64,000 nucleotides of DNA from an uncultured Thermoplasmata archaeon (GTDB lineage: Archaea > Thermoplasmatota > Thermoplasmata > UBA10834). Below, in pieces: positions 232-54,528 of the stretch. How positions within the stretch are numbered: the stretch's first letter is position 1; the number at the start of each line of letters is the position of its first letter. The translations under genes were made by a program, and so were the position numbers. The notes under the pieces were generated by a model. The model was not told the DNA's origin, did not search any database, and was given only the letters and a program-made list of their open reading frames with translations. Where the stretch lies: NCBI GenBank assembly GCA_964488505.1, contig CAZAUI010000002.1, positions 3,722 through 67,721 on the forward strand, written 5' to 3'.

Positions 232-2223
232 TCAGCGCTTCTTCTTTTTCTTCTTCCGCCCGCCGAACACGAGTATGGACGCCGTCGGCTCGAGCTCCTC
301 CTCGTCCTCCTCATCGGGCTCTGGCTCCGGCGCAGGTTCGGGGGCCCTCTCGGGGACCGGCTCGGACCGCGGCTGCGGCTCCGGGACCGGCGGCGGCACG
401 GGGATCACGGGCGCCTCGGGGGCCTTGCCCTGGGACACGTACACATCGTGCATGTCCATCCTCCTGAAGTGCAGGCGCTCGGTCTTCATCAGCAGGGCCA
501 TCGGCAGCACGAGCTGTTCGCTCGTGAGGCCCGTCCCCGTGATGATGCTGTCCAGGGTCGCGCCCTTGTCCGCCGTGACGTTCAGGATAGCCCTGATGGC
601 TGCGTTGACATCGAACTTGTCCTGGCCGCCGCCAACGACGAGCTGGGTCCTCTGCTCCACGATGCTCGTCAGGAACTCCTTCGACTTCCGGTCGAAGTCC
701 GTCGGGTCCTCCCTGAGCAGTGCCCTCAGGTAGGTCGTGTCGAGGCCCAGCTCCTCCCAGCCGCGGATCTGGTCCATGCACATGCCCTTGTAGAACTCCC
801 TCTGGAGGCCGTCCCTCGCCAGCTTGCTCCTGGGCCTCAGCTCGATCGCCTTCTGGAAGTACATGACCGCGTCGTCGCTCCTGCCGAGCTTGACGGAGGT
901 CTTGGCGAGGTTGATGTACGCGTCGAAGTTCTTCGGATCCAGGGCTACTGCGCGGTTGAAGCACGCCACGGCCTCCTCGGGCCATTCGAGGGTGCTGAAC
1001 ACCGCGCCCTTGTTATTCCACGCGACGGCGTTCTTCGGGTCCGCCTGTATGGACCTGTCGTACGAGCTCAGTGCGAGGGCCCTCTTGCCCTCGAAGGCGT
1101 ACATGTTGCCCAGATGGCACCACGTGGTGCTGTCCTCGGGGTCCATCTCCAGGGCCATGTCGTAGCTCGTCTTGGCCTTGGAGTACTCCTTCATGTGGTA
1201 TAGGACGTCACCCTTGACGTTCCACGGGAGCGAGAACTTGTGCGCGACGCCGGCCTCCGAGCTCTCCTGGACCGCGGCGTCCGCATGGACCAGCGCGGCG
1301 GGGAAGTCGCCCGTGTGCATCAGGTGCGCCGCCTTGCGCAGCTTGGTCCACATGGACAGGTACTCCTTCTCCTTCCACAGGTAGAGTATCAGCGGGACGA
1401 ACGAGAACACGATGCCGATGAGCGCGAGGCCGCGGTCGTACGGCTCGTAGGTCTCACTGGGCAGTATGCCGACCTGCTCGTGGAATGAGAGGAGGAACAC
1501 GGCCATGGCCCCTATGAGCCAGGCGCCCAGGTAGCCGTCCCTGGTCCTCATGAACTGGAGAGACACCAGGGCGGAGGTCATGCCGACGGCGAGGAGCACC
1601 AGGTTCAGGCCGGTGAAGGGGTACTCGCCCGGACGGCTCCTTGCGACATCGAAGGCCTCGTGGACCGGCATCAGGACCATCATGACGACGCCGAACCCGT
1701 ACACCGCGAGCCAGATGCTGTCCCTGTTCGAGATGGACTTCATGCCCATGACCATGAAGACGAATCCGGCGACCACGAGCACGCTCAGCAGCACCGCCCA
1801 TATGCCCACCTCGGAGCCCAGGGCCGCGAGGCCTGCGCCTGCGACGATCACGATTATGAGGCCCATTATCCAGAATGAGTCCTTCGAGAGCGGGAGTCTG
1901 ACGCCGTCATCGTAAGCCTTTCCGGTCGTCAGATAGAGCATCATGATGCCCATGAGCACGAAGAAGCCGGTCACGACGAACACGTAGGTGTTGTAGACCT
2001 CCCAGCTGCCGTACCACAGCTCCTGGCTGAGGAAGAACTCCACGGATGCGCCTATCACAACGGCGGCGTACAGGAGCAGGAGGTAGAGCCGGGGGCCTCC
2101 CAGGACCGGCATGAACGGCCTCACGGCCTCGGAGCGCGACCCCAGTGGTCTGAGCAGCTCCGCGAGGGAGACGCTCTCGTTCATGCGTTCGGGGCTGCTC
2201 TCGGGTGCATCAGGTACTTCCAT
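232..2223 (-). CDS. Polytopic membrane protein with cytoplasmic TPR repeats and a Pro/Glu-rich, poly-Lys C-terminal tail
   Basis: 663-aa ORF with ATG at 2221-2223. The N-terminal ~330 aa contain many hydrophobic helices. TPR-like units follow (GDVLYHMKEYSKAKTSYDMALEMDPEDSTTW..., AFEGKRALALSSYDRSIQADPKNAVAW..., STLEWPEEAVACFNRAVALDPKNFDAY..., GRSDDAVMYFQKAIELRPRS). The tail reads PEPAPEPEPDEEDEEELEP...GGRKKKKKKR. The start overlaps the stop of the upstream gene by 14 nt. Confidence 0.8.
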   Translation of the reverse strand: MEVPDAPESSPERMNESVSLAELLRPLGSRSEAVRPFMPVLGGPRLYLLLLYAAVVIGASVEFFLSQELWYGSWEVYNTYVFVVTGFFVLMGIMMLYLTTGKAYDDGVRLPLSKDSFWIMGLIIVIVAGAGLAALGSEVGIWAVLLSVLVVAGFVFMVMGMKSISNRDSIWLAVYGFGVVMMVLMPVHEAFDVARSRPGEYPFTGLNLVLLAVGMTSALVSLQFMRTRDGYLGAWLIGAMAVFLLSFHEQVGILPSETYEPYDRGLALIGIVFSFVPLILYLWKEKEYLSMWTKLRKAAHLMHTGDFPAALVHADAAVQESSEAGVAHKFSLPWNVKGDVLYHMKEYSKAKTSYDMALEMDPEDSTTWCHLGNMYAFEGKRALALSSYDRSIQADPKNAVAWNNKGAVFSTLEWPEEAVACFNRAVALDPKNFDAYINLAKTSVKLGRSDDAVMYFQKAIELRPRSKLARDGLQREFYKGMCMDQIRGWEELGLDTTYLRALLREDPTDFDRKSKEFLTSIVEQRTQLVVGGGQDKFDVNAAIRAILNVTADKGATLDSIITGTGLTSEQLVLPMALLMKTERLHFRRMDMHDVYVSQGKAPEAPVIPVPPPVPEPQPRSEPVPERAPEPAPEPEPDEEDEEELEPTASILVFGGRKKKKKKR

Positions 2224-4882
2224 CGGCCTTCCCTTCCGGATCCGCTTCCGTTTTCTTGCGCGCTGCCTGTCTACGCCGTATGACGAAGAAGATAATTGGT
2301 ACTATCGCTAACGGCGCTAATATGTCCCCGAACTCGGGGATTGGCACCTGGCCATCGTTTATCTCCCCTGGCGTGGGCTTCATGTAATCGTAATCGTCGT
2401 AGCCGTCGAGGGGGGAGCCGACCACGCCGTAGGATTTGACGGAATAGTCATCTGGCAGAATGACCTCGTCGACAATCGCGCCAGTGGGATCCAGCAGGAG
2501 GAAGGTGGTCGACGTCAGGAAGCTCAGCCTGGGCGTCACGAAGAACCCACCTGACTCGATGATGGTGCTCGTGGTGATCGTGTAGACGACATCGCCCACA
2601 ACGATGCTCCACCCCAAGAGGTCGATCGGCTCGCTGGATGTGTTGTACAGCTCTATCCAGTCAACGGTCCCGCGCGGCGCGGTCGAATATATCTCGTTGA
2701 TTATGATGCCGCCGATCTCCCTCGAACCCGACAACACACCCGCAGGCAGGGAGACGACCGCGCCGTCCTGGGACCCGCGCCAGTCCTGGGCCAGGAAGGT
2801 TATGTAGTAGGTGCCGTTGGCGGTCATGCCCAGGGCCTCGAAAGCCGCGCCCACCTCCAGCCGGTAGCTGTCAGCGGCCGCCTCGACCGTCCCCGTGAGC
2901 TCCCATGAGTCGTTTGAGAAAGAATAGGCGTTCGCCGACAGGATGTTACCGTTCTTCCCGACGACAGCCACAGCCGACTCCGCGCCCCCTATGTGGAAGC
3001 CGGTCGACTCGTTGCCGTCGAGGTCGACGAACATATATGCGAGGTCCGCCCCGTAGATGTGCTCCTCCTCCGTGGCGTTCGGCATGGACGCGCCCGGCTC
3101 CGGGGCATCGGCCCAGCGCACGAGCGTGCCAGGGACGCTCGAACCTCCGAGCATCCTGCCGTCGACGGACATATAGAACAGCGCGGTCGTCTCCTTGGAC
3201 CACGCCACCACGGAGGAGATGTCCACATCCTTGTTGGGGAAGACGCCTTCTCCCGCAAGGACCACATCTCCGAGGGAATCCTCCGCCATCATGAGGGCGT
3301 CCCAGTCCGCAAAGGCGCCGTCGATGGCGACGATATTGGGGGCGGAGCCGACATAGGTCGCTTTGTTATCGACCTGATGCGACGCCACAACGAATGTTGC
3401 GTTATCGGAGGTGATCATCCCGCTGGACCCGTTGAGTTCGATGCTGAAGGAGCGTGTCGCCAAACTTTCCGAGAAAGAAGCGAGCACTGATAGCTCAACG
3501 GGCTCGTCCGGGTTAAGCCGGACAGTTGCGGGGAAGATCACCTCCCGGCCCGTCCCCAGGCCAGCTTGAGTACTTCCTATCATTATCTTGATCTCAGACG
3601 GGACCGCGGTGCCTCCGAGCTCGAACCTGAGCCCTTCGAGGTCCACAGGCGACCCCTTCGAAGTGATTTCGAGCGTCAGCATCCGCTCGTCCGTGAAACC
3701 GGACGTGACGCCCGGGGCCACGAACTCCTGGACCACGCTCACCGCCGGGCCCGAATACCCGTAGTTGACCTCGGACCAGTCGTCGAGGACACCGGTGTGC
3801 CTAGCGCAGATCGCGACCTTGGAGACGGAGCTGGTGATCAGGGTAGTGCCGATCTCGATCTCCCCGTCGTTGAAGGCGACCGCGGGCTGCGAGGACTGCC
3901 GGAACCCGGCGAAGTCGTGCTGGTCCGCGCGCCTGTCGAACACGAATGAAGTTGACCGCTCGGCCGAGCCGTTCCAGCCGAGCACTGCGATCATGTGGTC
4001 CGCGCCCAGGCCCCTGACGATGTATCCCGTCGAGGTGTCGCCGTCGCGGTCGATGAAGATGTAGAACCCGTCGGCGCCGCCGTCCGCGCCGTTCATGATG
4101 GTGCCGTCTGTGGCGATGTAGAAATAGGATGCACGCGCGCTCGCTTGGACGGCGTAGGCAGATATGGACACGTCCGGGTTCTCGGAGTCCGGGATGTCCT
4201 CGTACACGGTCGCCTTGACCCAGTCCATGAAGTACCCGTCGATCTCGACGTCCTCAGGCGGGAACGCATGGACCAGCAGGTAGGGCACGGTCATGACGAA
4301 TGCGAACAGTAGGACGGCCACGACGACCTTCTTGCGCGCGACCGGGAACTGCTTCGACAACCTCCTGGCGGTCGAGGATATCCTGAAGCCGTTGACGGCG
4401 CCGGCGCCGTTCACGAAGCCGTTCGTGAGGCCGTTCGTCAGGCCGTTCGTGAGGCCGTTGGTGAGTCCGTTCGTCAAGCCGTTAGTGAGCCCGTTGACGA
4501 GCCCTGACCTGCGGGACCCGCGGGAGGAGCCGTTGGAGAAGCCGTTCGTGGCACCGTTCGTGCGGCCGTTCGTCCTGCCGTTGGTCCGTCCGTTGGTACG
4601 GCCGTTGACCCTGCCGTTCGTACGGCCGTTGGTCTTGCCGTTGGTTTTGCCGTTGGTGAGTCCGAAGAAGATCTGGTTGGAGCCGCTGTTCGCGGGCGGG
4701 TTCCCGAGGTTCCTCGAGCCGCCGTAGGCCGGGCCGTCGGCGACGCCGTCGAGACGACCCCTGTAGCCGGACTTGACGGCCACCATCGGCTTGCCCGTCA
4801 GCTGGTAAGCACTGCCGCTGGTGAGGCCCCTCGAACCGGGTGACGTGGGGGGTGACGTCTTCCCTCGGATGCCCTTCTGCAT
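2210..4882 (-). CDS. Surface protein with a cytoplasmic xTNG-repeat region, signal-anchor TM, two beta-rich 'DGxFxDW' ectodomain modules, a lamin-tail-like domain and a PEF-CTERM-like C-terminal anchor
   Basis: 890 aa with ATG at 4880-4882. It has (K/R)TNG x11 and LTNG x9 repeats, followed by RRLSKQFPVARKK and the TM VVVAVLLFAFVMTVPYLLVHAF. The two modules read IDGYFMDW...FYIFIDRDGDTSTGY...GADHMIAVLGWNGS and IDGAFADW...AYMFVDLDGNESTGF. An LTD-like stretch IIINEIYSTAPRGTVDWIELYNTSSEPIDLLGWSIV lies at about nt 2410-2715. The C-terminus is PIPEFGDILAPLAIVPIIFFVIRRRQ (nt 2267-2344). Confidence 0.85.
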   Translation of the reverse strand: MQKGIRGKTSPPTSPGSRGLTSGSAYQLTGKPMVAVKSGYRGRLDGVADGPAYGGSRNLGNPPANSGSNQIFFGLTNGKTNGKTNGRTNGRVNGRTNGRTNGRTNGRTNGATNGFSNGSSRGSRRSGLVNGLTNGLTNGLTNGLTNGLTNGLTNGFVNGAGAVNGFRISSTARRLSKQFPVARKKVVVAVLLFAFVMTVPYLLVHAFPPEDVEIDGYFMDWVKATVYEDIPDSENPDVSISAYAVQASARASYFYIATDGTIMNGADGGADGFYIFIDRDGDTSTGYIVRGLGADHMIAVLGWNGSAERSTSFVFDRRADQHDFAGFRQSSQPAVAFNDGEIEIGTTLITSSVSKVAICARHTGVLDDWSEVNYGYSGPAVSVVQEFVAPGVTSGFTDERMLTLEITSKGSPVDLEGLRFELGGTAVPSEIKIMIGSTQAGLGTGREVIFPATVRLNPDEPVELSVLASFSESLATRSFSIELNGSSGMITSDNATFVVASHQVDNKATYVGSAPNIVAIDGAFADWDALMMAEDSLGDVVLAGEGVFPNKDVDISSVVAWSKETTALFYMSVDGRMLGGSSVPGTLVRWADAPEPGASMPNATEEEHIYGADLAYMFVDLDGNESTGFHIGGAESAVAVVGKNGNILSANAYSFSNDSWELTGTVEAAADSYRLEVGAAFEALGMTANGTYYITFLAQDWRGSQDGAVVSLPAGVLSGSREIGGIIINEIYSTAPRGTVDWIELYNTSSEPIDLLGWSIVVGDVVYTITTSTIIESGGFFVTPRLSFLTSTTFLLLDPTGAIVDEVILPDDYSVKSYGVVGSPLDGYDDYDYMKPTPGEINDGQVPIPEFGDILAPLAIVPIIFFVIRRRQAARKKTEADPEGKADGST
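4388..4660 (-). repeat. Imperfect 12-nt tandem repeat in two blocks (4388-4503 and 4529-4660), in-frame and coding for x-T/V-N-G tetrapeptides
   Basis: The plus-strand unit gccgttNNNNNN recurs head-to-tail, e.g. gccgttcgtgag gccgttcgtcag gccgttcgtgag gccgttggtgag and gccgttcgtcct gccgttggtccg tccgttggtacg gccgttgaccct. It translates on the minus strand to LTNG x6 flanked by VNG units, and to (K/R)TNG x11. Confidence 0.9.
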
Positions 4883-5189
4883 CGCTTGTGCCTCTCCCGC
4901 GCATGCAGATAGCCAGGCCTACAACGTGCGGACCGCTAGCCCCCCTTAGACTCCCCCAGAAACACACTCTCTCTAAACAGACGGCACGCTGAGTAGCCGG
5001 CTAGCTGATGGCGGTTTGGCTACGCTCCTTCGAGATTAAGAGTGAGGTGTGGTTATAATACCCTTTCGCCTGAGGCGTCCGTGGGCTTACTGGCGGGCAC
5101 AATCCCGTTCTTATATGGCCTGACGATCGGAAGGAGTCAGTCGCGAGAAGAGAAGGAAAGTGGTTTGCGGGTCTCGGTACGGTCCCGGC

Positions 5190-5723
5190 TCAGTCCGCGA
5201 GCAACCAGTCGCCGAACGAGAGCTCTCCGTTGTTGTCGTCGTTCGGCAACAGGACCGTCTGGACCTCTATCACGTCGCCGATGTCGTACAGCTCCGAGAG
5301 GTTCTCGGGGGAGGACACGTCGATCCAGAACAACCCGTGGTTGACCGAGATGTACTCGTCCCCGTGCTCGGTCGAGGGAACGTTGAACAGTATCCCGGAT
5401 TCGGCGGAGGCCCACTTGTCATCCTCGTAGACGAAGTACATCCTCACCGTGTATACGGTCACGCCTCCCTCTACGATCTCGCTCCGCGGGTACATGTCCA
5501 CAATCCTGTCACTTACGGTCTTGATGTCCTGAGCCTCCCAATCCGACGGGAACTTCAGGTATTGGTCATAGGTCACGCTGGGGTTCGCGTTCTCCAGCTC
5601 GTTGAACAGCTTCGTGAAGCCCCCTGCAGTCCTGACGCCCCCGGCCGCTATCATGACGAAGGCGACCACGATGGCCGCCACAACCATGAGCGCCACCATT
5701 ATCGTGAGTATCTTCCTCTCCAT
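5190..5723 (-). CDS. Hypothetical N-terminally membrane-anchored extracytoplasmic protein
   Basis: An internal ATG (5721-5723) gives MERKILTIMVALMVVAAIVVAFVMIAAGG (signal anchor) followed by a soluble ~150-aa domain. No recognisable family. The longer ORF to 5834 adds a non-hydrophobic R/G-rich leader. Confidence 0.5.
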   Translation of the reverse strand: MERKILTIMVALMVVAAIVVAFVMIAAGGVRTAGGFTKLFNELENANPSVTYDQYLKFPSDWEAQDIKTVSDRIVDMYPRSEIVEGGVTVYTVRMYFVYEDDKWASAESGILFNVPSTEHGDEYISVNHGLFWIDVSSPENLSELYDIGDVIEVQTVLLPNDDNNGELSFGDWLLAD

Positions 5724-6141
5724 CCTTCTTACACTCCTGTCATACAGCTCTCGCTTGGGGGAGAGACACGTGCGTGAACGCTCTTCAGCGCCAGCTGGTC
5801 CATCCCTTCCGCTCGGCACCCCACATATGGACATAATGGTACATAATTATTTGGGGCCCGGAATACATGAGCGCTGGCTCGCCGGGAACACGCTCAGGAG
5901 CCGTCCGCGGGAAAAATGTTCCGAGGGGCGCCCATCACGCCGCCCCGACACTCTGCCTTGGCAACAATCCCACCACACCATCTACCGAGGGCTGCCGTCG
6001 CTTGTGTCCACCCTTCAACATCGACATCGTATATCAAATGTTGCGGAGTCGGACGTCGATGTACGAATTTCGTATCATGTCGAGGGTCAGAAAACGGTCC
6101 GAAGGGGTTTCCGGGTTTGCCGTCTGGGTGCTTGAGGCCGC

Positions 6142-7002
6142 TCAGTCGCAGGAGGCCTTCGAGGACGCGCGCCTCGAGCCCATGATGACGAGCACGATGC
6201 CGAGCACGAGGGCGACTGCGAACACGCCGGCGATCATCTCGCGGGAGTCCTGCATCGCCGAGTTGATCGGGTCCCAGAGCACGACGATTATGAGGGCGAG
6301 TATGCCGAACAGGAACAGCGACAGGGACAGGCCGGGCATGTTCCCGGAGACCTCCTTGCCGGACGACATCGCCTTCTTGATCAGCATGAACGCCAGCAGC
6401 CCGACCACGAGAAGGACGACCGGTATGACGATGAACATGGCGAGGTTGTCCTCGATCGGGGGCACCCAGCTCCAGTACCAGTCTATCATGAGCGCTATCT
6501 GCGTGCCCACGAGCCCGAGTATGATGAGCGCGACGCCTATGACCCTGAAGTCCATGATGCTCGAGGGCAGGCTGGCCTCGGGCGCCCTCTTCGGGGCGGC
6601 CCTGCTCGGCTTCGGTCTCGGCCTCTCCGGGGGCCTCGACGGCTTGGCGGCCGCCTTGGGCTTCTGCGCAGGCCTCGCCTTGGCCGGGGCGGGTTCGGGT
6701 TCGGCCTCGAAGACCGTCTTCTCCTCGACCTCGATGACCTCCTCGATCTCCTCTTCCTCGAACTCGGCGCCGCACTTCGGGCAGCTGACGACATCTATCC
6801 CGACCATGGCCCCGCAGACCGGGCATGCGACATCCTCGCTCTCGTCGGATGTGACGGGCTCAGCCTTCGCCTTCGAGGGCCTGACCGGCTCATCCTCGTC
6901 CTGCTCGAACTCGGCTCCGCAGTACGGACAGGAGGACACATCGACTCCGACTATCTTGCCGCAGACAGGGCACGCAATCTCATCATCTTGGTCTTTAGCC
7001 AT
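6142..7002 (-). CDS. Membrane protein with two N-terminal zinc ribbons, a Pro/Ala/Lys-rich linker and ~4 TM helices
   Basis: Ribbons are CPVCGKIVGVDVSSCPYCGAEFEQDEDE and CPVCGAMVGIDVVSCPKCGAEFEEEE. The linker is PAPAKARPAQKPKAAAKPSRPPERPRPKPSRAAPK. Hydrophobic helices follow (VIGVALIILGLVGTQIALMI, FIVIPVVLLVVGLLAFMLI, LSLSLFLFGILALIIVVLW, IAGVFAVALVLGIVLVIMG). Confidence 0.8.
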   Translation of the reverse strand: MAKDQDDEIACPVCGKIVGVDVSSCPYCGAEFEQDEDEPVRPSKAKAEPVTSDESEDVACPVCGAMVGIDVVSCPKCGAEFEEEEIEEVIEVEEKTVFEAEPEPAPAKARPAQKPKAAAKPSRPPERPRPKPSRAAPKRAPEASLPSSIMDFRVIGVALIILGLVGTQIALMIDWYWSWVPPIEDNLAMFIVIPVVLLVVGLLAFMLIKKAMSSGKEVSGNMPGLSLSLFLFGILALIIVVLWDPINSAMQDSREMIAGVFAVALVLGIVLVIMGSRRASSKASCD

Positions 7003-30206: not shown

Positions 30207-30330
30207 CCCGTGCCCGGACGTATATGAACCTATGCAGAGCCCGGGCGTGCTGGCCCCTCGAGAGGTTACCGCGCTGGAATGCCTGAGAGGGCCAGTAGCG
30301 TTATCAGAACCGATAACTCTGGGCCGACCG

Positions 30331-30338
30331 TATATATA
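30331..30338 (+). promoter_or_regulatory. TATA-box-like element upstream of the giant + strand gene
   Basis: tatatata at 30331-30338 lies ~55 nt upstream of the ATG at 30393. It is inside the longer 30279 ORF, which argues for the 30393 start. Confidence 0.4.
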
Positions 30339-30392
30339 GACCCGGCACGAGTTCTAACTAGATGCCGGCCAGCGGCATCGGTGTCACCTTCC

Positions 30393-33300
30393 ATGTCAAT
30401 CCCTTCGGAACATGCGGGCACGCACGAGGCCAAGACCACGCCCTCGGAGGCCCTCGCATCGTTCCTCGTCTGCGCGTTCATGCTGCTGTCCTCGCTCTCC
30501 ATCTTCTCAGGGGACGCGGTCTCCGACCCCGTGGTCGTGGACAACCCCGATGACACCCGCACGGTCGTCTGGGACTTCGACTCCCCGGACGGCTACCTGA
30601 TGACCGGCACCGAGCTGGTCGGCGGGGACGCCGTGCTGGAGTACCTGAACCTGACGGACGGCGACCACGAGTACGAGGACTACTCCGCCGGCACGCTGAC
30701 GAACGTGGACGTCGAGAGCATCCCCGGGTCGGCCATCATCGGCAGCGGGGGCCCTGTCGAAACCTATGTCTCCGAGCCGGGGCCGAACGTGACCGACTCA
30801 TACATCTCCGAGAACTGGCCGAACGACAACTACGGGGACGCCTCGGGCCTGTACCTGGACTCGGAGGCTGATAAGATGATGCGCATCGTCATGCAGTTCG
30901 ACGTATCCTCGATCCCGAGCATCGCGCACATAACGAACGCGACGCTCTGGCTGTACCAGCAGTCGGGGTCCAGGGGCGACGACATCGTGTGCAACGTGTA
31001 CAGCCTCTCCGTGCCCTTCGTCGAGTCCGAGGTGTCCTGGACCAGGAACGCGACGGCCTCCCCGTGGACGAACGCAGGCGGAGACTACGACAACTACTCT
31101 TACGGGACCCTCACGATCCCGATCCGACTCGGATGGCATGGCGCGGACCTATCCGAGCTCGTCGAGGCCTGGACCGACGGCGCTGTGACCAACAACGGGT
31201 TCATCCTGGTCCCAGAGCCCACGGTCAGCGACTGTCAGAAGGTCTTCCAGAGCTCGGACGACAACGAGCCCATCGAGCACGGACCCTGGCTCATAGTCAA
31301 CTACACGGTCCCTGCGAACGCGGGCATCATGGAGTCCAGGGTGATTGGCCCGGGCACCAACTCGACATTCACATCGGCATCCTACTACACATCGGCGCTC
31401 TCGCGCCTGGACGATGACTTCTCGGGCACGGCGGCCTTCCCCGAATGGAACTGGATGAACACACCCGCCGCTTACGACATCAACTCGACCACGCCGGGCA
31501 GGCTACACGTGACGGGTTCGCCGGAGACCGAGGCGCAGGACACGACGGTCACCTGCAACTTCATCCACCAGTCCGTCACCGGAGACTTCTCCGCGTCCAC
31601 GTACCTCGAGGACGGGTTCACGGAGATGACCATGGGTGCGGGCCTGCTGCTGTACGAGAGCAGCTCCGACTGGATGTACGTGGCAAAGGCGCAGTTCGCG
31701 ATGAACAGCAGGGTACAGGCGGTCGTCTGCCAGGGCGGCACGAGCACCTTGATGTCCGATATCGTCTGGCCGGAGTACTACAGCGCCCATCTGAAGATGG
31801 AGAGGAACTCGACAGGCGTATGGTTCTACGCGAGCACGGACGGTGAGTCGTACCAGCTGGTGTACAGCCATGAGTCCGGGACGCCGCTCGCTGACTGGCT
31901 GTCGGTCGGCCTCTTCGTATACTCCAACTCGTTGACCCAACCGGTCGTCGAGTTCGACCACTTCACAGTGGCGTTCTCCGAGATGCCTTCGGTGGAGGTC
32001 AAGGTGAGGTACGGCAACTCGACCCTGCTCTCTGACCCGTCCTGGGAGGACTGGGAGTCCGCATCGACCATCTCGAGCCCGGCGACCCTGGGCCAGACGG
32101 GCAAATACCTCCAGTACAGGGCATCCATATCATCCCCCGAGGACTGGTACACCCCGGTGTTCTCTGACTTCGACTGCTGGTACGGTATGTACCGCGACAG
32201 CGGGGTGATCACGACCCCTGAGCACGTGCCCACGGACTTCAGCTACTGGATAGGCATGACCACGAACGAGACGGACGACGGCGGGTATGTCATGTACAGG
32301 TACTCGACCGACGGCGGGGACACATGGCTCCCGGCCGGAACCGGCGGCTCGTACTCCATATCATCGATCGAACCGTCCTTCATGATAAGGGCCGAGGTCT
32401 ACACGTACGACACGCTGAGGTCCCCGCGCGTGCACTCCGTCTCCGCGACGCATGTGACGGCCGTGTCGTACCTCGAGGTCGTCGCGCCGTCCCAGGTCGT
32501 CGCCGGCGCGTCCTTCTCTGTCACCATCACGGCCAAGGACGGCTCGGACGACACGATGGTGCACTGGGACGGCGGCCTGCAGCTCATGGCGGTCGACCTC
32601 GACGGTACCACGCCCCTGCATCCGGACCTGGCAGAGACCGAGGCCTGGATCACGGATTACGGCTCGGTCACCATCCTGAACGAGCGGTACACGCAGGCCG
32701 GGGCCATCCTCATCAGGGTCGAGACGGAAGAGGGCGCGTTCGGGCTCAGCGGGGCCATCGAGGTCGTCCCGAGCACGATATCGTCCCTGCACATCGAGCC
32801 CACGGTTGACACGCTCCTGGAGGGCGCGCAGCAGGTGTTCACGGGGGTGGCTAGGGACGCGTACGGGAACACGCTCACGGACGTCAACTACTCGTGGTCC
32901 GTGGACGAGGACATAGGATCGCTCAACACCTACAACGGCAGCACGGTGATATTCACGGCAGGGGAGGCGGGGAACTCGGGATACCTGAGCGTGTCCGTCG
33001 AGGGGCTCACAGCGTCCCTGCTCATCACGATCACGCACACGGCGAACGCGCCTGTGTTCACTGAGGACCCGGCGGACCAGAGCGTCTACGAGGATGCGGG
33101 CTCGTGGACCATCGACCTGGCCCCGATCGTCGTGGACGCCGTCCACCAGGACTACGAACTCAGGTGGTACGCGACCGGAGAGAACGTCATCGACGTGAGC
33201 GGCGAGAACAGGACGGGGAACCTGGTCATGACGCTTAGCACGCTGCCCGACATCTCGGGGACGGATGTGCTCAACGTGGTCGTCGTGGACCCGGACGGCC

Positions 33301-43454: not shown

Positions 43455-43700
43455 CGCGAGATACCTGCTGTCGTAGCCGAGGGAGAGTAGATAAACCCTC
43501 GGGAATGTTAGAAGGATTCACAGACTGGACCTTGATTCGATTGTCACTTCCTGTACACATTCGGCGTTTTGACCATATCGTATCATTTTGCATCAATCAT
43601 CCAAGACAAAGTATATGAAGGTCCGTGGCAATCGGTGACATCCTCAGGGTATCTGGAGGAGAGGCCATGAGGGTATTCCATCTTCGGAGTTAGAGAATCG

Positions 43701-44627
43701 ATGAATGACATCCCTCGAGAGCATATTGCCGCAGTCATACCCGCATTCAACGAAGCGAAGACCATCTCTATGGTCATCCACGGAGTGAGCAAGTATGCGG
43801 GAGAGGTCATCGTCGTAGATGACGGAAGCAGCGACGGCACCGCTGACCTTGCCGTTTCTGCGGGAGCTAATGTGATTCGCATTCCCCGGAACGTAGGAAA
43901 GGGAAATGCTCTCGGAATAGGACTCACGACTGCTGCCCTCAATGGTAGCAGAGTCGTCGTGTGTCTAGATGCGGATGGACAGCACAATCCCGACGACATG
44001 CCGAGGATAGTAGCCCCGGTACTAGACGGTCGAGCAGACATGGTCATAGGATCGAGATTCTTGGACGCGAGCTCCAGAGAGCTCATTCCCACATACAGAC
44101 GCATGGGACAGAACATACTCACTTATGCGACCAACATAGGGAACACCGTCAGAATCACCGATTCACAGAGCGGGTACCGGGCTTTCAGGAAGGATGTCCT
44201 GAGAGGCTTCGAATACGCTGAATCCGGGATGGGTGTGGAGTCTGAGATGGTCCGCATGGCTGTGAGAAACGGACTCAGAGTCGAAGAGGTCCCAATCACG
44301 GCGCGATACGATGGATTGGACACTTCCAGCATAAGGCCAGGCAGGCATGGCATCGGAGTTCTGAATTCCGTTCTGAGATCTGTTAGGTCAGAACACCCGC
44401 TGCTCTACTTCGGAGTCGGTGGTCTTTTCCTCATGATCATTGGCCTGATACTTGGAGTGTACTCAGTCGAGCAGTACATTACAGTCAGCCAACTACCTTT
44501 CGGACCGAGTCTGCTGGCCACTCTGTTCACGGCGATGGGGACTGTGTTCCTCTTGGTCGGACTAATACTAAACGCGATAAGCAGTGTTGCCGCGTCGGAT
44601 CGTAACGGACGCATGAACGGTCGATGA
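43701..44627 (+). CDS. GT2-family glycosyltransferase, polyprenyl/dolichyl-phosphate hexose synthase-like, with two C-terminal TM helices
   Basis: AAVIPAFNEAKTISMVI...VIVVDDGSSDGTADLA...RNVGKGNALGIGL...VCLDADGQHNPDDMPRIV...DMVIGSRF. The C-terminal TMs are LLYFGVGGLFLMIIGLILGVY and LATLFTAMGTVFLLVGLILNAI. Confidence 0.85.
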   Translation: MNDIPREHIAAVIPAFNEAKTISMVIHGVSKYAGEVIVVDDGSSDGTADLAVSAGANVIRIPRNVGKGNALGIGLTTAALNGSRVVVCLDADGQHNPDDMPRIVAPVLDGRADMVIGSRFLDASSRELIPTYRRMGQNILTYATNIGNTVRITDSQSGYRAFRKDVLRGFEYAESGMGVESEMVRMAVRNGLRVEEVPITARYDGLDTSSIRPGRHGIGVLNSVLRSVRSEHPLLYFGVGGLFLMIIGLILGVYSVEQYITVSQLPFGPSLLATLFTAMGTVFLLVGLILNAISSVAASDRNGRMNGR

Positions 44628-44694
44628 AATACTTGACACAGTATTGACGATACGGTAGCAGTCATATCAATCACGCGCAATCAGGATAGATTAC

Positions 44695-45861: not shown

Positions 45862-45867
45862 GTCCAG

Positions 45868-50275: not shown

Positions 50276-50479
50276 CTTTGGAGATGAGCCGATTGACGCT
50301 TCAGCAATTCCGACTCGGCCCCGGATAAATGCACATATCTAGGCACTCTTACCTAACTAGCGCTAAACGACGGAGGGATGGGGGCCTCCCACCGTAGCCA
50401 CTGGTCTCAAATGCCTTCGGTCCCGTGGACAACTTGCACGGTGACCCGAAACGCATGTAGGAAACGGTTCCGCCTAAAC

Positions 50480-51446: not shown

Positions 51447-51519
51447 GGAGATGCGCCGGTACCCGACTGCAAGAGCATCTCATCAATCAGGTTGCGGTTC
51501 GGTCTTCACCTCTTTTAAG

Positions 51520-54500
51520 CTACTGCCTCCGCCTCCGAGCTAGGACGATGAAAATCACCAACACGAAGATGACCGGCATTGCCATGTCTCCGAACTCTGG
51601 GAGACTCTCAGTTGTTGGCCAGGGATATGCAGCAATGACTTCCATCTCATCCAAAGACCTGCCCCCGGAAACGTCATAATCCGAGAAGAACAGCGCAAGG
51701 TCCTCGGCTCGCCTCCAGTCGGTTGTGATTACCAAGAAATCGAAGTCGCCATCTCCCCCGACATCTGTAGAATCCAACCCCAGTTCAATCGCAGATTCTC
51801 GGGCCTCTACATCAATCCAAGCCTCCGTGTCAGCCCAGTAACCATCTACATACACACTGAGTGTGGCCTCCTTGATCTCACCACACAGGCCCGAGATCTC
51901 TATCAACCGTTCAGCCCCAACTACAGAGGAGCCTGCGTTCACCGTGAACCCGGTCGCTGAGGACTTGTCGCAGTCGATGTAAATCTTCATGAAGTCCTCG
52001 CCCGTTCTCCGAACCGGAACCACGGTTCCGTTCCCAGCTGCCGTAGGACGAGAACATGTCACGGGCGCATAGTCTCCCGCGAATATCTCACCACGCACGC
52101 TGACGAAGACATACGAGTTGTCAGTGTCATTTGCCCCTCCCACATCATCGATGTCGATGTTCGGATTGGTGACTATATCAGAATCGACGTCGGTCGCCGT
52201 CCGCCCTATCCAATCGGCGAAAGCACCGTCGATGGCAACACTCTCCGGCGGTATGTCGACATAAGCCCTTGCACCTCCGCCTACAACACTGACTTGGCTG
52301 AACGAAGACTGGATTCCTTCCGAAGTCACAAACGCGGATACGAACTGACCCGATGGGATAGATGATGCATCAGAGAGCAGGTCGACCTCGACCTCCTCCC
52401 CTAGCTCCAGAGAGAACGGTTCCACGGACCCCAGCAAATCGATACCGATCAGTTCTGGAGACACCGATAAAACATCGCCTCCGGCTCTCAAACACGAGAA
52501 TTTCAGTGTCGAAACGAGTACTTCAGAGCCTGGTTCCAGGATACCGTCTGAGGTGATGTCGACCGAGGGGGTTTGTTCCACGACCAACATCCCGCCCACG
52601 ACAGGGACTGGATGGCTCCTGCACCCAGGCCCATCTTCATCAATCGACGTCAGGAGCACCTTCGAAGCGTCTCCCAAGTCTGCGAACAATTCAGCAGACG
52701 CCTCCAACTGAGATCCATCCAAAAAGCAAGTCACGCCACAACGAGGTGTCCATGCATTCCAGTCCAGGCGATCATCAGAAGAACCGAAGACATAGCAGGT
52801 AGACTTGGAAACGGATTGATTCCAACCCAAGATCTCAATCATGGCGTCCGCGCCAATCTCGGCCAAATTGTATCCTGTTTCAACTGAACCATCTGCGTCT
52901 ATGAAAAGGATGAATCCTTCTACAGTTTCGCTCGCCATCATAGGAGCCTCAGTCTCAACGTACAGGTAAATGGCCCTTGAGTGGGTCGCGACCGACCATT
53001 CGGTCACATCAATCGTGGGTGAAAACGCGGAGGTTGTAGTCGTAAATCGAGCCTCATCATCCCAGTCATCGAATTCTCCGTTCACCGAAAAAGGAGGTTC
53101 GTCCCTTCCCAGTGTAGTGAAGTAGACCGCTGGAATCACAAGCACGCATGCGACGACGATTGCCATCAGCTGCCATCGCCTTAGCAAGAGATTGCGCCGA
53201 CCGCGAGTGACTTGCCTTCTTCCGTTAACAGCGCCCCCGTTCGAAAGCCCCCTCCCGTTGACGAGGTCCATGCCGTTCGTGGCCCCAGTCCCGTTTATCC
53301 GGCTTGGAGCGGTCGCCTGTCCCAACCCGTTCACGAGGCTGACGCCGTTTATTGCGCTTGCACCATTCGAGATGCCCCTCCTAGAATCTCCCCTGCGACG
53401 GCCCACCGGTGGTCTCAGAATGCCTGGCGCGACCGCCTTCGCTTTCGACGGCCCGCTCCAACTGAGTGCTGTGGCCTGAGTAGTCTCTTCAGTCTCGAAC
53501 TCTGTTCCGCAGTGAGGGCAGACCGGGACAAGGAGGCCTACGCTGTTCCCGCATACCGGGCACGACACCTCGTCTTCAATCGCAGTGACACCTGTCACTG
53601 GGCCGACTGCTGGAGGCTTGGGAACCTCCTCCTCAGGCTCGAACTCGGCTCCGCAACGCGGACAGACTTGAACGGATGTTCCAACGGCCTCGCCACAGAC
53701 CGGACATGAGACGCTTTCGTCCACCTCTTGTGCTGAAGGAGATGAGACGGCGAGCAGTGCGTTGGTTGTCTCCTTCGCCAATCCCACTGGCTCGAACTCC
53801 GCCCCACAGAACGGGCAGGATTTGTTGGCGACGTTCGAAACTGAACCGCAAATCGGACACTCGGCATCCTCCTCACTCTCCGCAGCCGTTTCAGAGACCC
53901 GGGTTGCCCCCTGCTCCGGAAGACCAGATACCTCCCCTGGAGCTTCGACTTCGAACTCGGTGCCGCACTTGGGACACCGGGTGGCATCGATGCTGACCGT
54001 TGCGCCGCACACAGGACAATCGGACAGTTCGGTGTCCATCACGACGAGGCCGCCTTTCGGCGGCCCGTCTCCAGCCTTAGGGGTGTCCCAACCTGATTGA
54101 TCATCCTCTGGCTCGAATTCTGTCCCGCAGACGTTGCAACGAAGATCCTTTGCCGAAACCTTCTTCCCGCAAACAGGGCACTCGGAACTGTCATCCGTGA
54201 GTTCGTCAGCTGCAGGGATTCTCTTCTTCGGCGCAGGTGCGCTCTTGTTAGTCTTCGCCCGTTCCGTCTTAGCCTTAGATTGAGGCTTCTTCACGAACTT
54301 CGGGAGGTTCATCCCACAAACTGAGCAGGTGGCCTCGGATTGTAGAACTGGATTGCTGCAGTAAGGGCACTTCAGCTGAGCGTCTTCCGTCAATTTGCGG
54401 CCGCATTTGGGGCAGGTGCCCTGCTGCCCTGACACACGGCTTCCGCAGTGGGGGCATACTGTCGTCTTCTTACGCCCTGATGTCATGGAGGGAGTACCTT

Positions 54501-54528
54501 GGCCTTCATCTGAGCCTGAGCGAGTCAC
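51520..54528 (-). CDS. Surface protein: seven cytoplasmic zinc ribbons, xxNG-repeat region, signal-anchor TM, two 'DGxFxDW' ectodomain modules and Ig-like regions, PEF-CTERM-like anchor
   Basis: 1002 aa from GTG 54528; an alternative ATG lies at 54486. There are seven CPxCG...CxxCG units (Cys pairs at aa 25/28-39/42, 54/57-68/71, 117/120-131/134, 171/174-185/188, 224/227-238/241, 275/278-289/292 and 323/326-337/340). The NG-rich region is ISNGASAINGVSLVNG...INGTGATNGMDLVNGRGLSNGGAVNG. The TM is LMAIVVACVLVIPAVYFTTL. The modules are VNGEFDDW...FILFIDADGSVETGY...GADAMIEILGWNQS and IDGAFADW...MKIYIDCDKSSATGF. The C-terminus is LPEFGDMAMPVIFVLVIFIVLARRRRQ (nt 51523-51603). Confidence 0.85.
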   Translation of the reverse strand: MTRSGSDEGQGTPSMTSGRKKTTVCPHCGSRVSGQQGTCPKCGRKLTEDAQLKCPYCSNPVLQSEATCSVCGMNLPKFVKKPQSKAKTERAKTNKSAPAPKKRIPAADELTDDSSECPVCGKKVSAKDLRCNVCGTEFEPEDDQSGWDTPKAGDGPPKGGLVVMDTELSDCPVCGATVSIDATRCPKCGTEFEVEAPGEVSGLPEQGATRVSETAAESEEDAECPICGSVSNVANKSCPFCGAEFEPVGLAKETTNALLAVSSPSAQEVDESVSCPVCGEAVGTSVQVCPRCGAEFEPEEEVPKPPAVGPVTGVTAIEDEVSCPVCGNSVGLLVPVCPHCGTEFETEETTQATALSWSGPSKAKAVAPGILRPPVGRRRGDSRRGISNGASAINGVSLVNGLGQATAPSRINGTGATNGMDLVNGRGLSNGGAVNGRRQVTRGRRNLLLRRWQLMAIVVACVLVIPAVYFTTLGRDEPPFSVNGEFDDWDDEARFTTTTSAFSPTIDVTEWSVATHSRAIYLYVETEAPMMASETVEGFILFIDADGSVETGYNLAEIGADAMIEILGWNQSVSKSTCYVFGSSDDRLDWNAWTPRCGVTCFLDGSQLEASAELFADLGDASKVLLTSIDEDGPGCRSHPVPVVGGMLVVEQTPSVDITSDGILEPGSEVLVSTLKFSCLRAGGDVLSVSPELIGIDLLGSVEPFSLELGEEVEVDLLSDASSIPSGQFVSAFVTSEGIQSSFSQVSVVGGGARAYVDIPPESVAIDGAFADWIGRTATDVDSDIVTNPNIDIDDVGGANDTDNSYVFVSVRGEIFAGDYAPVTCSRPTAAGNGTVVPVRRTGEDFMKIYIDCDKSSATGFTVNAGSSVVGAERLIEISGLCGEIKEATLSVYVDGYWADTEAWIDVEARESAIELGLDSTDVGGDGDFDFLVITTDWRRAEDLALFFSDYDVSGGRSLDEMEVIAAYPWPTTESLPEFGDMAMPVIFVLVIFIVLARRRRQ

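What the first reader, a model, noticed from the sequence alone, without database searches (positions are those of the whole stretch)
2210..4882. PEF-CTERM-type surface protein family with a long cytoplasmic N-terminus: proteins anchored at both ends
Seen: this 890-aa protein and the 1002-aa product of 51520-54528 share one architecture. It comprises a cytoplasmic N-region ending in xxNG repeats and a basic patch, one signal-anchor TM, and paralogous ectodomain modules (IDGYFMDW...FYIFIDRDGDTSTGY...GADHMIAVLGWNGS vs VNGEFDDW...FILFIDADGSVETGY...GADAMIEILGWNQS). Both end in the tripartite C-terminus P-E-F-G-D, hydrophobic helix, RRRQ. Established: PEF-CTERM is the archaeal sorting signal associated with archaeosortase C. 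Sortase-type substrates normally begin with a cleavable signal peptide. Inference: here the N-terminus cannot be a cleaved signal, since 190-450 cytoplasmic residues precede the TM. After C-terminal processing the ectodomain would stay tethered by its N-terminal TM to a cytoplasmic repeat or zinc-ribbon domain. This topology is unusual for this sorting system. No archaeosortase gene is in the window.
Basis: partly seen in the sequence, partly recalled or inferred. Interest (0 to 1): 0.65.

Follow-up and report, generated by a model that had tools for sequence, protein, structure and literature searches.

The report
Doubly anchored Thermoplasmata surface protein family
Two genes in this window belong to a large, undescribed family of archaeal (Thermoplasmata) surface glycoproteins that have a conserved cytoplasmic head, a membrane helix, a large outer domain and a second short helix resembling a known archaeal sorting signal, so the outer domain is probably tied to the membrane at both ends.

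Summary
P1 (2210-4882, 890 aa) and P2 (51520-54528, up to 1002 aa) are paralogues (26% identity over 620 aa, E 4e-36). They share one layout: a cytoplasmic N-region with xNG repeats and a basic patch, a 22-24-residue helix, two DGxFxDW beta-sandwich modules, then [IL]PEFGD, a 15-16-residue hydrophobic stretch and RRR. This layout defines a family of at least 393 loci, named almost only for Thermoplasmata-type MAGs. The N-region is translated: its GC3 is 0.87-0.93, and the pre-helix motif NGFVNGxGAVNGFR is one of the two most conserved segments of P1, alongside IPEF. The C-terminus is PEF-CTERM-like but borderline. P2 scores 20.1 bits against a cutoff of 23 and P1 gives no hit; 40 of 80 family C-termini match TIGR03024, few above cutoff. 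No archaeosortase gene lies in the window or in 84 related loci, and whole genomes could not be searched. My best reading (about 0.45) is a retained N-terminal signal-anchor plus a sortase-type C-terminal signal. The main rival (about 0.35) is that both helices are permanent. It is a new variant of a known kind, of moderate interest.

The parts
2210..4882 (-). P1 coding sequence, 890 aa (LTD-containing family member)
   Evidence: ORF. GC3 is 0.71-0.93 along its whole length. 398 homologues with E<=1e-3.
4328..4882 (-). P1 cytoplasmic N-region (aa 1-185), predicted disordered
   Evidence: GC3 is 0.87-0.93 in frame. AF2 pLDDT is about 31. There is 1 sequon against 4.6 expected. An SD-like GGGAGAGG lies 10 nt before the ATG.
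4385..4663 (-). P1 xxNG tetrapeptide repeats (aa 74-166; (T/V)NG(R/K/L) units)
   Evidence: 12-nt tandem arrays at 4406-4495 and 4554-4657. In the 85 loci, runs of >=4 xNG units occur only in family members, 62 of 62.
4358..4420 (-). Conserved cytoplasmic motif before the helix, GFVNGAGAVNGFRISSTARRL (aa 155-175)
   Evidence: N158 G159 G161 N164 G165 F166 R167 S169 R173 are >=90% conserved in 55 orthologues. Mean top-residue frequency is 0.82, second only to IPEF at 0.83.
4262..4327 (-). P1 helix 1 (aa 186-207), signal-anchor, N-in
   Evidence: Hydropathy. AF2 helix 182-206. P200 is invariant. ARKK precedes it and PPEDVE follows.
3728..4243 (-). P1 ectodomain module 1 (IDGYFMDW...FIDRDGDTSTGY...GADHMIAVLGWNGS), a beta-sandwich
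   Evidence: AF2 domain model has pLDDT 84 and pTM 0.84. No PDB match with E<1e-3. Sequon N304 is kept in 52 of 55 orthologues.
2738..3328 (-). P1 ectodomain module 2 (AIDGAFADW...FVDLDGNESTGF...)
   Evidence: Internal repeat of module 1. It aligns with P2 765-946. pLDDT is >90 for most of it.
2468..2716 (-). P1 lamin tail domain (aa 723-805)
   Evidence: Pfam PF00932, 43.5 bits against a cutoff of 34.3.
2324..2341 (-). P1 IPEFGD motif (aa 848-853)
   Evidence: I848 P849 E850 are invariant and F851 is >=90% conserved in 55 orthologues. P and E are invariant in 80 family C-termini.
2279..2323 (-). P1 helix 2 / hydrophobic part of the C-terminal signal (aa 854-868, 15 residues, 2 Pro)
   Evidence: Across the family the uncharged run is 14-19 residues, median 15.
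2213..2278 (-). P1 basic cluster RRRQAARKK and acidic tail TEADPEGKADGST (aa 869-890)
   Evidence: A similar SEG.xDGST tail is seen in the closest orthologues.
232..2223 (-). Partner gene: 8-TM + cytoplasmic TPR protein, 663 aa, overlapping the P1 stop by 14 nt
   Evidence: Pfam TPR_1 E 1e-28. Directly downstream of P1-type genes in 32 loci. Fused to a P1-like protein in P0051.
5190..5834 (-). Conserved upstream neighbour, 214 aa, one TM, no family hit
   Evidence: Present in 33 P1-type loci. No Pfam or NCBIfam hit.
6142..7002 (-). Conserved neighbour: zinc-ribbon + 4-TM protein, 286 aa
   Evidence: Pfam Zn_ribbon_3 E 2.5e-10. Present in 29 loci.
51520..54528 (-). P2 coding sequence, up to 1002 aa (public aa)
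   Evidence: ORF. P0121 is 100% identical at 930 aa. Orthologues reach 61% identity with the same layout.
53497..54459 (-). P2 seven zinc ribbons (aa 24-344), cytoplasmic
   Evidence: Pfam Zn_ribbon_3 E 2.1e-21 and DZR E 3.5e-21. 14 CxxC pairs.
53215..53373 (-). P2 NG-rich stretch ending in GGAVNGRR (aa 386-438)
   Evidence: Aligns with the P1 xNG region. Conserved in P2 orthologues.
53107..53178 (-). P2 helix 1 (aa 451-474)
   Evidence: Hydropathy. RGRRNLLLRR precedes it and GRDEPP follows.
52579..53088 (-). P2 ectodomain module 1 (VNGEFDDW...FIDADGSVETGY...GADAMIEILGWNQS)
   Evidence: BLASTP alignment with P1 module 1.
51691..52236 (-). P2 ectodomain module 2 (AIDGAFADW...YIDCDKSSATGF)
   Evidence: BLASTP alignment with P1 module 2.
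51523..51603 (-). P2 C-terminal tripartite signal: LPEFGD + MAMPVIFVLVIFIVLA + RRRRQ
   Evidence: TIGR03024 19.7-20.1 bits (cutoff 23) and TIGR04296 19.5-19.9 bits (cutoff 25), aligned over model positions 2-25 of 25.

Best explanation
P1 and P2 are paralogous members of a large family of surface glycoproteins that has turned up almost only in Thermoplasmata-type MAGs. In this family the outer domain is bracketed by two conserved membrane modules.

Shown or directly readable:
- The N-terminal part is translated and stays on the cytoplasmic side. In P1 it is a disordered basic xNG-repeat region; in P2 it is seven zinc ribbons plus an NG-rich stretch. Both end in a GAVNG(F)R motif and a basic patch.
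- A 22-24-residue helix follows and acts as an N-in signal-anchor.
- The beta-sandwich ectodomain lies outside and carries conserved N-glycosylation sequons. It has two DGxFxDW modules, plus an LTD in P1.
- The chain ends with [IL]PEF-G-D, a short 15-16-residue proline-containing hydrophobic stretch and an Arg cluster on the cytoplasmic side.

Inferred:
- The C-terminal module is a sortase-type, PEF-CTERM-like signal. It holds the chain only transiently and is cut near PEF by an archaeosortase-like transpeptidase, which adds a lipid.
- Because helix 1 is not removed, the mature ectodomain is tethered at both ends: by a protein helix at the N-end and by lipid at the C-end.
- The ectodomain is thereby coupled to cytoplasmic domains. 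These are zinc ribbons in P2. For P1 it is the TPR domain of the translationally coupled 8-TM neighbour. In paralogues they are fused TPR, HhH or KaiC-like domains.

I put the topology and retention of the N-region at about 0.85. I put the processing step at about 0.45.
For: Architecture and family
- Searches show the shared layout in P1 and P2.
- There are 398 protein clusters and at least 393 genomic loci, nearly all named as Thermoplasmata-type MAGs.
- Nearly every full-length listed homologue has a single helix about 10 residues before DGxFxDW and a C-terminal PE[FL]-helix-basic end.

The N-region is real
- GC3 is 0.87-0.93, as in the rest of P1.
- The pre-helix motif is nearly invariant. 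With IPEF it is the most conserved segment: 0.82 and 0.83, against 0.63-0.65 for the folded modules.
- Orthologues called 'short' start inside this motif.
- P2's zinc ribbons are in frame.

Topology
- There are basic patches on the cytoplasmic side of both helices and acidic residues outside.
- The ectodomain has 8 sequons against 3.4 expected (P=0.015), and N304 is kept in 52 of 55 orthologues. The N-region has 1 against 4.6 expected.

The C-terminus looks like a sorting signal
- P and E are invariant in 80 diverse C-termini, whatever ectodomain precedes them.
- TIGR03024 is the model hit most often: 40 of 80, best E 9.6e-7, and one of ten re-scanned reaches 24.9 bits against a cutoff of 23. 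Alignments cover the whole 25-position model.
- The hydrophobic stretch is tightly held at 14-19 residues (median 15). Helix 1 has a median of 24, and plain C-terminal anchors of two other giant surface proteins in the window have 21-22.
- Many members end 0-5 residues after the basic cluster.

Literature
- PEF-CTERM pairs with archaeosortase C (PMC5244752; PMC9723798).
- ArtA can process a tripartite signal that is not at the very C-terminus (PMC6098224).
Against: - Neither window protein reaches the curated cutoff of TIGR03024 or TIGR04296, and P1 gives no hit at all. Other CTERM models (Heimdall, Loki, JDVT, PEP-CTERM) also score 12-19 bits, so much of the score is generic helix plus Arg.
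- No exosortase/archaeosortase-like gene was found in the window or in 84 related loci, 1.34 Mb in all, using a profile of 114 archaeosortases (best E 0.18). Conserved multi-TM neighbours gave none either.
- I do not know whether any genome with this family has such an enzyme.
- In those loci 71 of 74 PE[FL] C-termini sit on proteins with the DGxFxDW N-module. None sits on a protein with an ordinary signal peptide. This fits a joint N/C membrane module better than a portable signal.
- Tails after the basic pair have a median of 8 residues and reach 40; P1 has 18 after RRRQ.
- Ten paralogues keep EEGVADSVPWTDGR at the extreme C-terminus. Identity there is 79%, against 52% overall. That is odd for a piece that would be thrown away.
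- Helix 2 is as conserved as the folded domains.
Confidence: 0.45

Rival explanations
1. Permanent two-helix protein. Both helices stay in the mature protein (N-in, C-in, one large outer loop). On this view IPEF and the pre-helix motif belong to a family-specific membrane module, for example helix 1 pairing with helix 2 or docking to a shared partner. The likeness to PEF-CTERM would then be convergent, and the cytoplasmic tail would be functional, for example as a C-terminal peptide bound by the cytoplasmic TPR domains.
For: - The N-module and C-module are inherited together: 71 of 74, and xNG repeats occur only in family members, 62 of 62.
- Helices 1 and 2 are as conserved as the folded domains.
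- The extreme C-terminal motif EEGVADSVPWTDGR is conserved while the linker before it varies from 5 to 45 residues.
- TPR domains are either fused at the N-terminus or supplied by the coupled 8-TM neighbour.
- In P0051 the tail of a P1-like protein runs straight into the N-terminus of the 8-TM TPR protein, which is topologically consistent.
- No archaeosortase lies in 1.34 Mb of family loci.
- HMM scores are below the cutoffs.
Against: - A 14-19-residue (median 15) uncharged stretch with one or two prolines is short for a permanent span. Helix 1 and the other C-terminal anchors of the same organism have 21-24 residues.
- Invariant P-E at the outer face, regardless of the preceding domain, is typical of an enzyme recognition motif.
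- Many members have almost no tail.
- The tail is not conserved across P1 orthologues as a whole: top-residue frequency 0.26.
- P0051 could be a frameshift artefact of two overlapping genes.
Confidence: 0.35
2. N-terminal release. Helix 1 works as an internal signal sequence that signal peptidase cuts after it (P1 ...LLVHA|FPP; orthologues ...LVYA|FP). The cytoplasmic head plus helix 1 would be separated from the ectodomain, which would then hang only by its C-terminal module.
For: P1-type orthologues keep a small residue at -1 and V/L at -3 directly after the helix (VYA/VYS/VHA then FP).
Against: - P2 and the large paralogues have no such site after helix 1.
- The head region and its motif are conserved together with the ectodomain, and cytoplasmic domains are repeatedly fused to it. 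That makes little sense if the two parts separate at once.
- Helix 1 at 22-24 residues is long for a cleaved signal.
Confidence: 0.1
3. Annotation artefact. Translation really starts just before helix 1 (TTG codon 175 in P1), giving an ordinary signal peptide, and the upstream ORF is a non-coding extension in a GC-rich genome.
For: An in-frame TTG at codon 175 is abutted by AGGAGG. Long spurious ORFs are common at 60.6% GC.
Against: - The AGGAGG has zero spacing to the TTG.
- GC3 upstream is 0.87-0.93 in this frame.
- The motif just upstream of codon 175 is the best-conserved protein segment in 55 orthologues.
- In P2 and the paralogues the region holds zinc-ribbon, TPR, HhH and KaiC domains with strong Pfam hits, in frame.
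Confidence: 0.03

Closest known systems
PEF-CTERM / archaeosortase C system (TIGR03024, IPR017474; ArtC IPR022504) of Methanosarcinales and ANME-2
   Same: Both have the C-terminal tripartite signal: P-E-F at the outer membrane face, about 15-17 hydrophobic residues, then an Arg/Lys cluster. The family C-termini align over the whole 25-position model, and TIGR03024 is the model they hit most often.
   Different: - Scores are mostly below the curated cutoff; P2 scores 20.1 against 23 and P1 gives no hit.
- The lineage is Thermoplasmata.
- Tails reach 40 residues.
- The signal sits on proteins with a long cytoplasmic N-region and an uncleaved signal-anchor, not on Sec/Tat substrates with a cleavable signal peptide.
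- No cognate ArtC has been found so far.
PGF-CTERM / archaeosortase A (Haloferax volcanii S-layer glycoprotein)
   Same: It is the model for what the C-terminal module would do: the helix is cut off and a lipid is attached, on N-glycosylated surface proteins. ArtA also tolerates extra sequence after the signal (PMC6098224).
   Different: The motif differs (PGF, not PEF). ArtA substrates keep no N-terminal anchor. ArtA-like genes were not found in any family locus.
PEFG-CTERM (TIGR04296)
   Same: The P-E-F-G start of the signal. P2 scores 19.5-19.9 bits.
   Different: That is below the cutoff of 25. Only 10 of 80 family C-termini match. My recollection, not tested here, is that this model was built for another archaeal lineage.
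Zinc-ribbon / single-helix / ectodomain membrane proteins (e.g. TcaA-type, 'zinc ribbon domain-containing protein')
   Same: Both have N-terminal cytoplasmic zinc ribbon(s) followed by one helix and an outer domain. P2 gives a weak TcaA N-terminal hit (29 bits).
   Different: Those proteins lack the xNG/GAVNGFR motif, the DGxFxDW modules and any C-terminal sorting-type signal.
Firmicu-CTERM domain proteins (TIGR04145)
   Same: The start of the DGxFxDW module gives a weak match to the first 47 positions of that model (P2 26.4 bits, P1 13.6).
   Different: These scores are far below the cutoff of 50. Only the N-terminal part of the model is matched, and the lineage differs.

Membership tests
PEF-CTERM sorting domain (TIGR03024) | HMM score at or above the curated cutoff of 23 bits | tested here: not met
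   P2 C-terminus scores 19.7-20.1 bits. P1 gives no hit, either as the whole protein or as the C-terminus alone. At family level 40 of 80 match at E<=10. Of ten re-scanned, seven score 13.5-24.9 bits, one of them above the cutoff, and three give no TIGR03024 hit. The best of the 80 has E 9.6e-7.
PEF-CTERM sorting domain (TIGR03024) | Tripartite C-terminus: signature motif, short hydrophobic helix, basic cluster at or near the end | tested here: met
   P1 has IPEFGD + 15 hydrophobic residues + RRRQAARKK, followed by a 13-residue acidic tail. P2 has LPEFGD + 16 + RRRRQ-end. In the family, P and E are invariant and the hydrophobic run is 14-19 residues.
PEF-CTERM / archaeosortase C system | A cognate archaeosortase (ArtC, exosortase/archaeosortase family) encoded in the same genome | not testable with these tools
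   None was found in the 64-kb window, in 84 related loci totalling 1.34 Mb, or among conserved multi-TM neighbours.
Archaeosortase/sortase substrates in general | N-terminal cleavable Sec or Tat signal peptide | tested here: not met
   185 residues (P1) or about 450 residues (P2) precede the helix. They are translated and conserved.
Archaeosortase substrates | The C-terminal helix is absent from the mature protein and a lipid is attached | not testable with these tools
   This needs proteomics or lipid labelling.
PEFG-CTERM (TIGR04296) | HMM score at or above 25 bits | tested here: not met
   P2 scores 19.5-19.9 bits and P1 gives no hit. 10 of 80 family C-termini match at E<=10.
Lamin tail domain (PF00932) | Pfam gathering score of 34.3 bits | tested here: met
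   P1 residues 723-805 score 43.5 bits, E 4.5e-11. P2 has no LTD.
Zinc-ribbon domains (PF13248, PF12773, PF13240) | Pfam gathering scores of 25-27.3 bits; CxxC...CxxC pairs | tested here: met
   P2 scores 72-75 bits with seven ribbons. P1 has none.

The most novel reading that the evidence does not exclude
The two conserved ends ((xNG)n-GAVNGFR-helix 1-DGxFxDW, and IPEF-short helix-Arg-tail) form one sortase-independent membrane module found almost only in Thermoplasmata. It staples a glycosylated outer domain to the membrane at both ends and couples it to cytoplasmic zinc-ribbon, TPR, HhH or KaiC-like domains. The cytoplasmic C-terminal peptide (for example ...GVADSVPWTDGR-COOH, or the acidic ...SEGxxDGST-COOH of P1) would be bound by the TPR domains in cis or in trans. 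This would be an envelope-to-cytoplasm linker system in archaea, many of which lack a rigid wall.
Probability: 0.2. Interest if true: 0.75.

Novelty: new variant of a known kind. Interest (0 to 1): 0.55.

Why it matters
Archaeosortase substrates are thought of as secreted proteins whose only tie to the cell is the C-terminal lipid. Here a PEF-CTERM-like signal is welded, across hundreds of Thermoplasmata genes, to a retained N-terminal signal-anchor and a conserved cytoplasmic head.

If the signal is processed, these would be surface proteins tethered at both ends and wired to cytoplasmic zinc-ribbon, TPR or KaiC domains. That topology has not been described for this sorting system, and it is a candidate building block of the poorly known Thermoplasmata cell envelope. 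If it is not processed, then short PEF-type C-termini are not reliable markers of archaeosortase substrates, which matters for automated annotation.

Either way the family is large and multi-copy per genome. It is currently annotated only as 'lamin tail / zinc ribbon / DUF11 domain-containing' or hypothetical. The competing models can be told apart with simple proteomics and a genome-wide HMM search.

Tried and rejected
1. Start just before helix 1. This is rejected: GC3 and the conserved pre-helix motif show the N-region is coding.
2. Archaeosortase next to the genes. None of these searches found one:
   - Pfam and NCBIfam scans of window membrane proteins;
   - phmmer with a recalled H. volcanii ArtA sequence, which I validated at 338 bits on TIGR04125;
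   - a profile of 114 diverse archaeosortases against every ORF of 85 loci;
   - NCBIfam on ten multi-TM neighbours.
3. Finding out which lineages the archaeosortase representatives come from. Two cluster look-ups returned mostly unnamed metagenome entries, plus haloarchaeal and Methanosarcinaceae names and nothing from Thermoplasmata. This was uninformative.
4. The 8-TM domain of the TPR neighbour as a hidden sortase. The TM part has no Cys and there is no exosortase hit. Rejected.
5. Structural identity of the ectodomain. The whole-protein model gave only generic multi-beta-sandwich matches with TM <=0.22. The module-1 model (pTM 0.84) had no PDB match with E<1e-3; the best were CrdA and glucodextranase at E 5e-3 to 8e-3.
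6. Literature. No paper links Thermoplasmatota with archaeosortases or with this architecture. The founding paper (Haft 2012) is not held.
7. An exact look-up of P1 in the assembly collection found nothing, because the public gene call uses a different start.
Full report
**1. What is there**

The window is 60.6% G+C. On the minus strand, 2210-4882 encodes P1 (890 aa, ATG) and 51520-54528 encodes P2 (up to 1002 aa, GTG).

BLASTP of the two gives 26% identity over 620 residues, E 4e-36. The alignment runs from the NG-rich stretch through the first helix and both DGxFxDW modules. The last 25 residues (IPEFGD/LPEFGD, hydrophobic stretch, RRR) align separately.

Hydropathy places one helix at P1 about 186-206 and one at 850-868, and in P2 at about 451-474 and 982-997. 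AlphaFold2 on P1 with 55 orthologues gives:
- a disordered N-region, residues 1-177, pLDDT about 31;
- a helix at 182-206;
- a confident all-beta ectodomain;
- a helix at 852-879.

Pfam finds a lamin tail domain in P1 (43.5 bits) and seven zinc ribbons in P2 (E 2e-21). The xxNG repeats of P1 are two 12-nt tandem arrays. No other ORF in the window ends in PEF + helix + basic cluster. P1 has 18 more residues after RRRQ. The public call of P2 (930 aa) starts inside the zinc ribbons and is probably too short.

**2. It is a family, not a pair**

P1 has 398 homologous protein clusters. A scan of one genome per species found at least 393 loci. Nearly all are named Thermoplasmata, Thermoplasmatota, Methanobacteriota or Methanomassiliicoccales MAGs; two records (Paceibacterota, Coriobacteriia) are probably mis-binned. 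Some chromosomes carry several copies, for example four listed loci each on CP070739.1 and CP070751.1.

Nearly every full-length listed member has the same skeleton:
- an N-region that ranges from about 30 to 800 residues;
- one helix;
- DGxFxDW about 10 residues later;
- a variable ectodomain;
- [IV]PE[FL], a short helix, basic residues and a tail.

The N-regions carry zinc ribbons, TPR, helix-hairpin-helix or KaiC-like ATPase domains, always before the helix. LTD, DUF11 and beta-helix domains always come after it. Runs of four or more xNG units occur in 62 of 903 genes of the fetched loci, and all 62 are family members.

**3. Is the N-region translated?**

Yes, on four lines of evidence:
- Third-position GC is 0.87-0.93 in P1 codons 1-200, as in the rest of the gene.
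- In 55 orthologues the segment just before the helix (NGFVNGxGAVNGFRLSYQQR; P1 155-175) is nearly invariant. Together with IPEF it is the most conserved part of the protein. Mean top-residue frequencies are 0.82 and 0.83, against 0.63-0.65 for the folded modules.
- Orthologues annotated as short start inside this motif (MNGSGAVNGFRL...), so they are truncated gene calls.
- The only in-frame start near the helix is TTG codon 175, with AGGAGG abutting it at zero spacing. The ATG at 4882 has a GGGAGAGG about 10 nt upstream, with TATA-like boxes further up.

**4. Topology**

Basic patches lie before helix 1 (ARKK; RGRRNLLLRR) and after helix 2 (RRRQAARKK; RRRRQ). Acidic residues lie on the other sides (PPEDVE; PEFGD).

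N-glycosylation sequons are enriched in the P1 ectodomain: 8 against 3.4 expected, P=0.015. Several are conserved: N304 in 52 of 55 orthologues, N624 in 47 of 55. The Asn-rich N-region has only one sequon against 4.6 expected. This supports N-in, ectodomain out, C-tail in. The topology rests on hydropathy, AF2 helices and these rules, not on a dedicated predictor.

**5. Is the C-terminus a PEF-CTERM signal?**

As whole proteins neither P1 nor P2 hits TIGR03024. Alone, the P2 C-terminus scores 19.7-20.1 bits on TIGR03024 (cutoff 23) and 19.5-19.9 on PEFG-CTERM TIGR04296 (cutoff 25). P1 gives nothing.

Of 80 diverse family C-termini:
- 40 match TIGR03024 (best E 9.6e-7);
- 12 match Heimdall-CTERM;
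- 10 match PEFG-CTERM.

Ten were re-scanned. Seven score 13.5-24.9 bits on TIGR03024 and three give no hit, with alignments covering the full 25 positions. So the likeness is real but borderline, and part of the score is generic helix plus Arg.

Two further features fit a sorting signal. P and E are invariant whatever domain precedes them. The uncharged stretch is held at 14-19 residues (median 15, with 1-2 prolines) in 177 members. Helix 1 has a median of 24, and the plain C-terminal anchors of the window's other two giant surface proteins have 21-22.

**6. What speaks against simple sortase processing**

- No exosortase/archaeosortase gene lies in the window. None lies in 84 related loci (1.34 Mb), searched with ArtA and with a profile of 114 archaeosortase representatives (best E 0.18). 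None is among the conserved multi-TM neighbours.
- In the loci, 71 of 74 PE[FL]-type C-termini belong to proteins with the DGxFxDW N-module. Two of the other three look like spurious ORFs, and the N-terminus of the third is masked.
- Tails after the basic pair have a median of 8 residues and reach 40.
- Ten large paralogues end in EEGVADSVPWTDGR. Identity there is 79% against 52% overall, behind linkers that vary from 5 to 45 residues.
- Helix 2 is as conserved as the folded domains.

**7. Context**

P1-type genes sit in a conserved cluster:
- an FtsX-like pair;
- DUF1616;
- a zinc-ribbon 4-TM protein (6142-7002);
- a ~200-aa one-TM protein (5190-5834);
- P1;
- an 8-TM protein with a cytoplasmic TPR domain (232-2223) whose start overlaps the P1 stop by 14 nt.

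One database entry (P0051) fuses a P1-like protein to this neighbour. The fusion is topologically consistent but may be a frameshift artefact. Large paralogues are instead preceded by KaiC-like and MarR-like genes and often followed by a FlaK/A24-like peptidase. P2 lies in a glycosyltransferase island of low GC3, 0.49-0.67 against 0.7-0.93 in the rest of the window.

**8. The ectodomain**

It is a string of beta-sandwiches. The whole model gives only generic matches: alpha-2-macroglobulin-like proteins, sialidases, RTX adhesin repeats and SbsC, all with TM <=0.22. A separate model of module 1 (pLDDT 84, pTM 0.84) has no PDB match with E<1e-3. The fold says 'surface or adhesin-like', and nothing more.

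**9. Verdict**

The topology and the retained cytoplasmic N-region are well supported, at about 0.85. 'PEF-CTERM-type' is a fair description of the shape but fails the curated membership test for both window proteins. Processing by an archaeosortase is an inference, at about 0.45. It is favoured by the short, length-constrained hydrophobic stretch and the invariant P-E. It is opposed by the missing enzyme, the co-inheritance with the N-module and the conserved tails. The main rival, a permanent two-helix protein, stands at about 0.35.

I found no description of this architecture in the searched literature. The link between PEF-CTERM and ArtC is established only for Methanosarcinales and ANME-2.

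I rate this a new variant of a known kind, with interest 0.55.

Noticed in passing
window 43700-54530: This block has GC3 of 0.49-0.67, against 0.7-0.93 in the rest of the window. It holds four glycosyltransferases, a 13-TM protein (47460-49193) with no family hit, and P2. It looks like a compositionally foreign glycosylation and surface island.
   Followed up: partly
window 30279-35318 (+) and 35400-40901 (-): Two more giant surface proteins. The 1679-aa one has CBM96/disaggregatase-like, ConA-like and Big_9 domains, a C-terminal helix and a ~170-aa cytoplasmic domain. The 1833-aa one has a classical signal peptide, Big_13, a 22-residue C-terminal anchor and a Pro/Gln-rich tail. Neither has a PEF motif.
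   Followed up: partly
window 232-2223 (-): An 8-TM + TPR protein with no Cys in its membrane part, ending in GGRKKKKKKR. Its start overlaps the P1 stop by 14 nt. It lies directly downstream of P1-type genes in 32 loci and is fused to one in P0051.
   Followed up: partly
P0060, P0064, P0069, P0070, P0072, P0083-P0085, P0111; L048 7775-12175: The motif EEGVADSVPWTDGR sits at the extreme C-terminus of large paralogues, behind linkers of 5-45 residues. Identity there is 79%, against 52% overall. It may be a ligand for the cytoplasmic TPR domains.
   Followed up: partly
L003 14645-15601, L081 13683-14621 and 9 further loci: A FlaK/peptidase A24-like membrane protease gene (PF06847; FlaK_Arch 54 bits) lies next to the large paralogues in 11 loci.
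   Followed up: no
L005/L006 14374-16275; L001 691-1974: A Peptidase_C11 (clostripain-family) gene lies directly after the P1-type gene pair, or within 8 kb of it, in 7 loci. It is a cysteine protease that could in principle act on surface proteins.
   Followed up: no
L003 8349-9915 and about 20 further loci; P0086: KaiC-like ATPase (289 aa) and MarR/HTH-like (231 aa) genes precede the large paralogues in 18-21 loci. In other members a KaiC-like domain is fused at the N-terminus.
   Followed up: no
window 4293-4727 (+), 4482-4967 (-): Long spurious ORFs overlap the xNG repeat region in other frames and on the other strand (PFVRPFV... and QRQDQR... translations). These are artefacts of the 12-nt repeats in GC-rich DNA.
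   Followed up: yes
L019 (DATEYD010000064.1), L078 (CAVYJL010000005.1): Family members sit on contigs binned as Paceibacterota and Coriobacteriia MAGs. Given the otherwise exclusive Thermoplasmata distribution, these are most likely mis-binned contigs.
   Followed up: no
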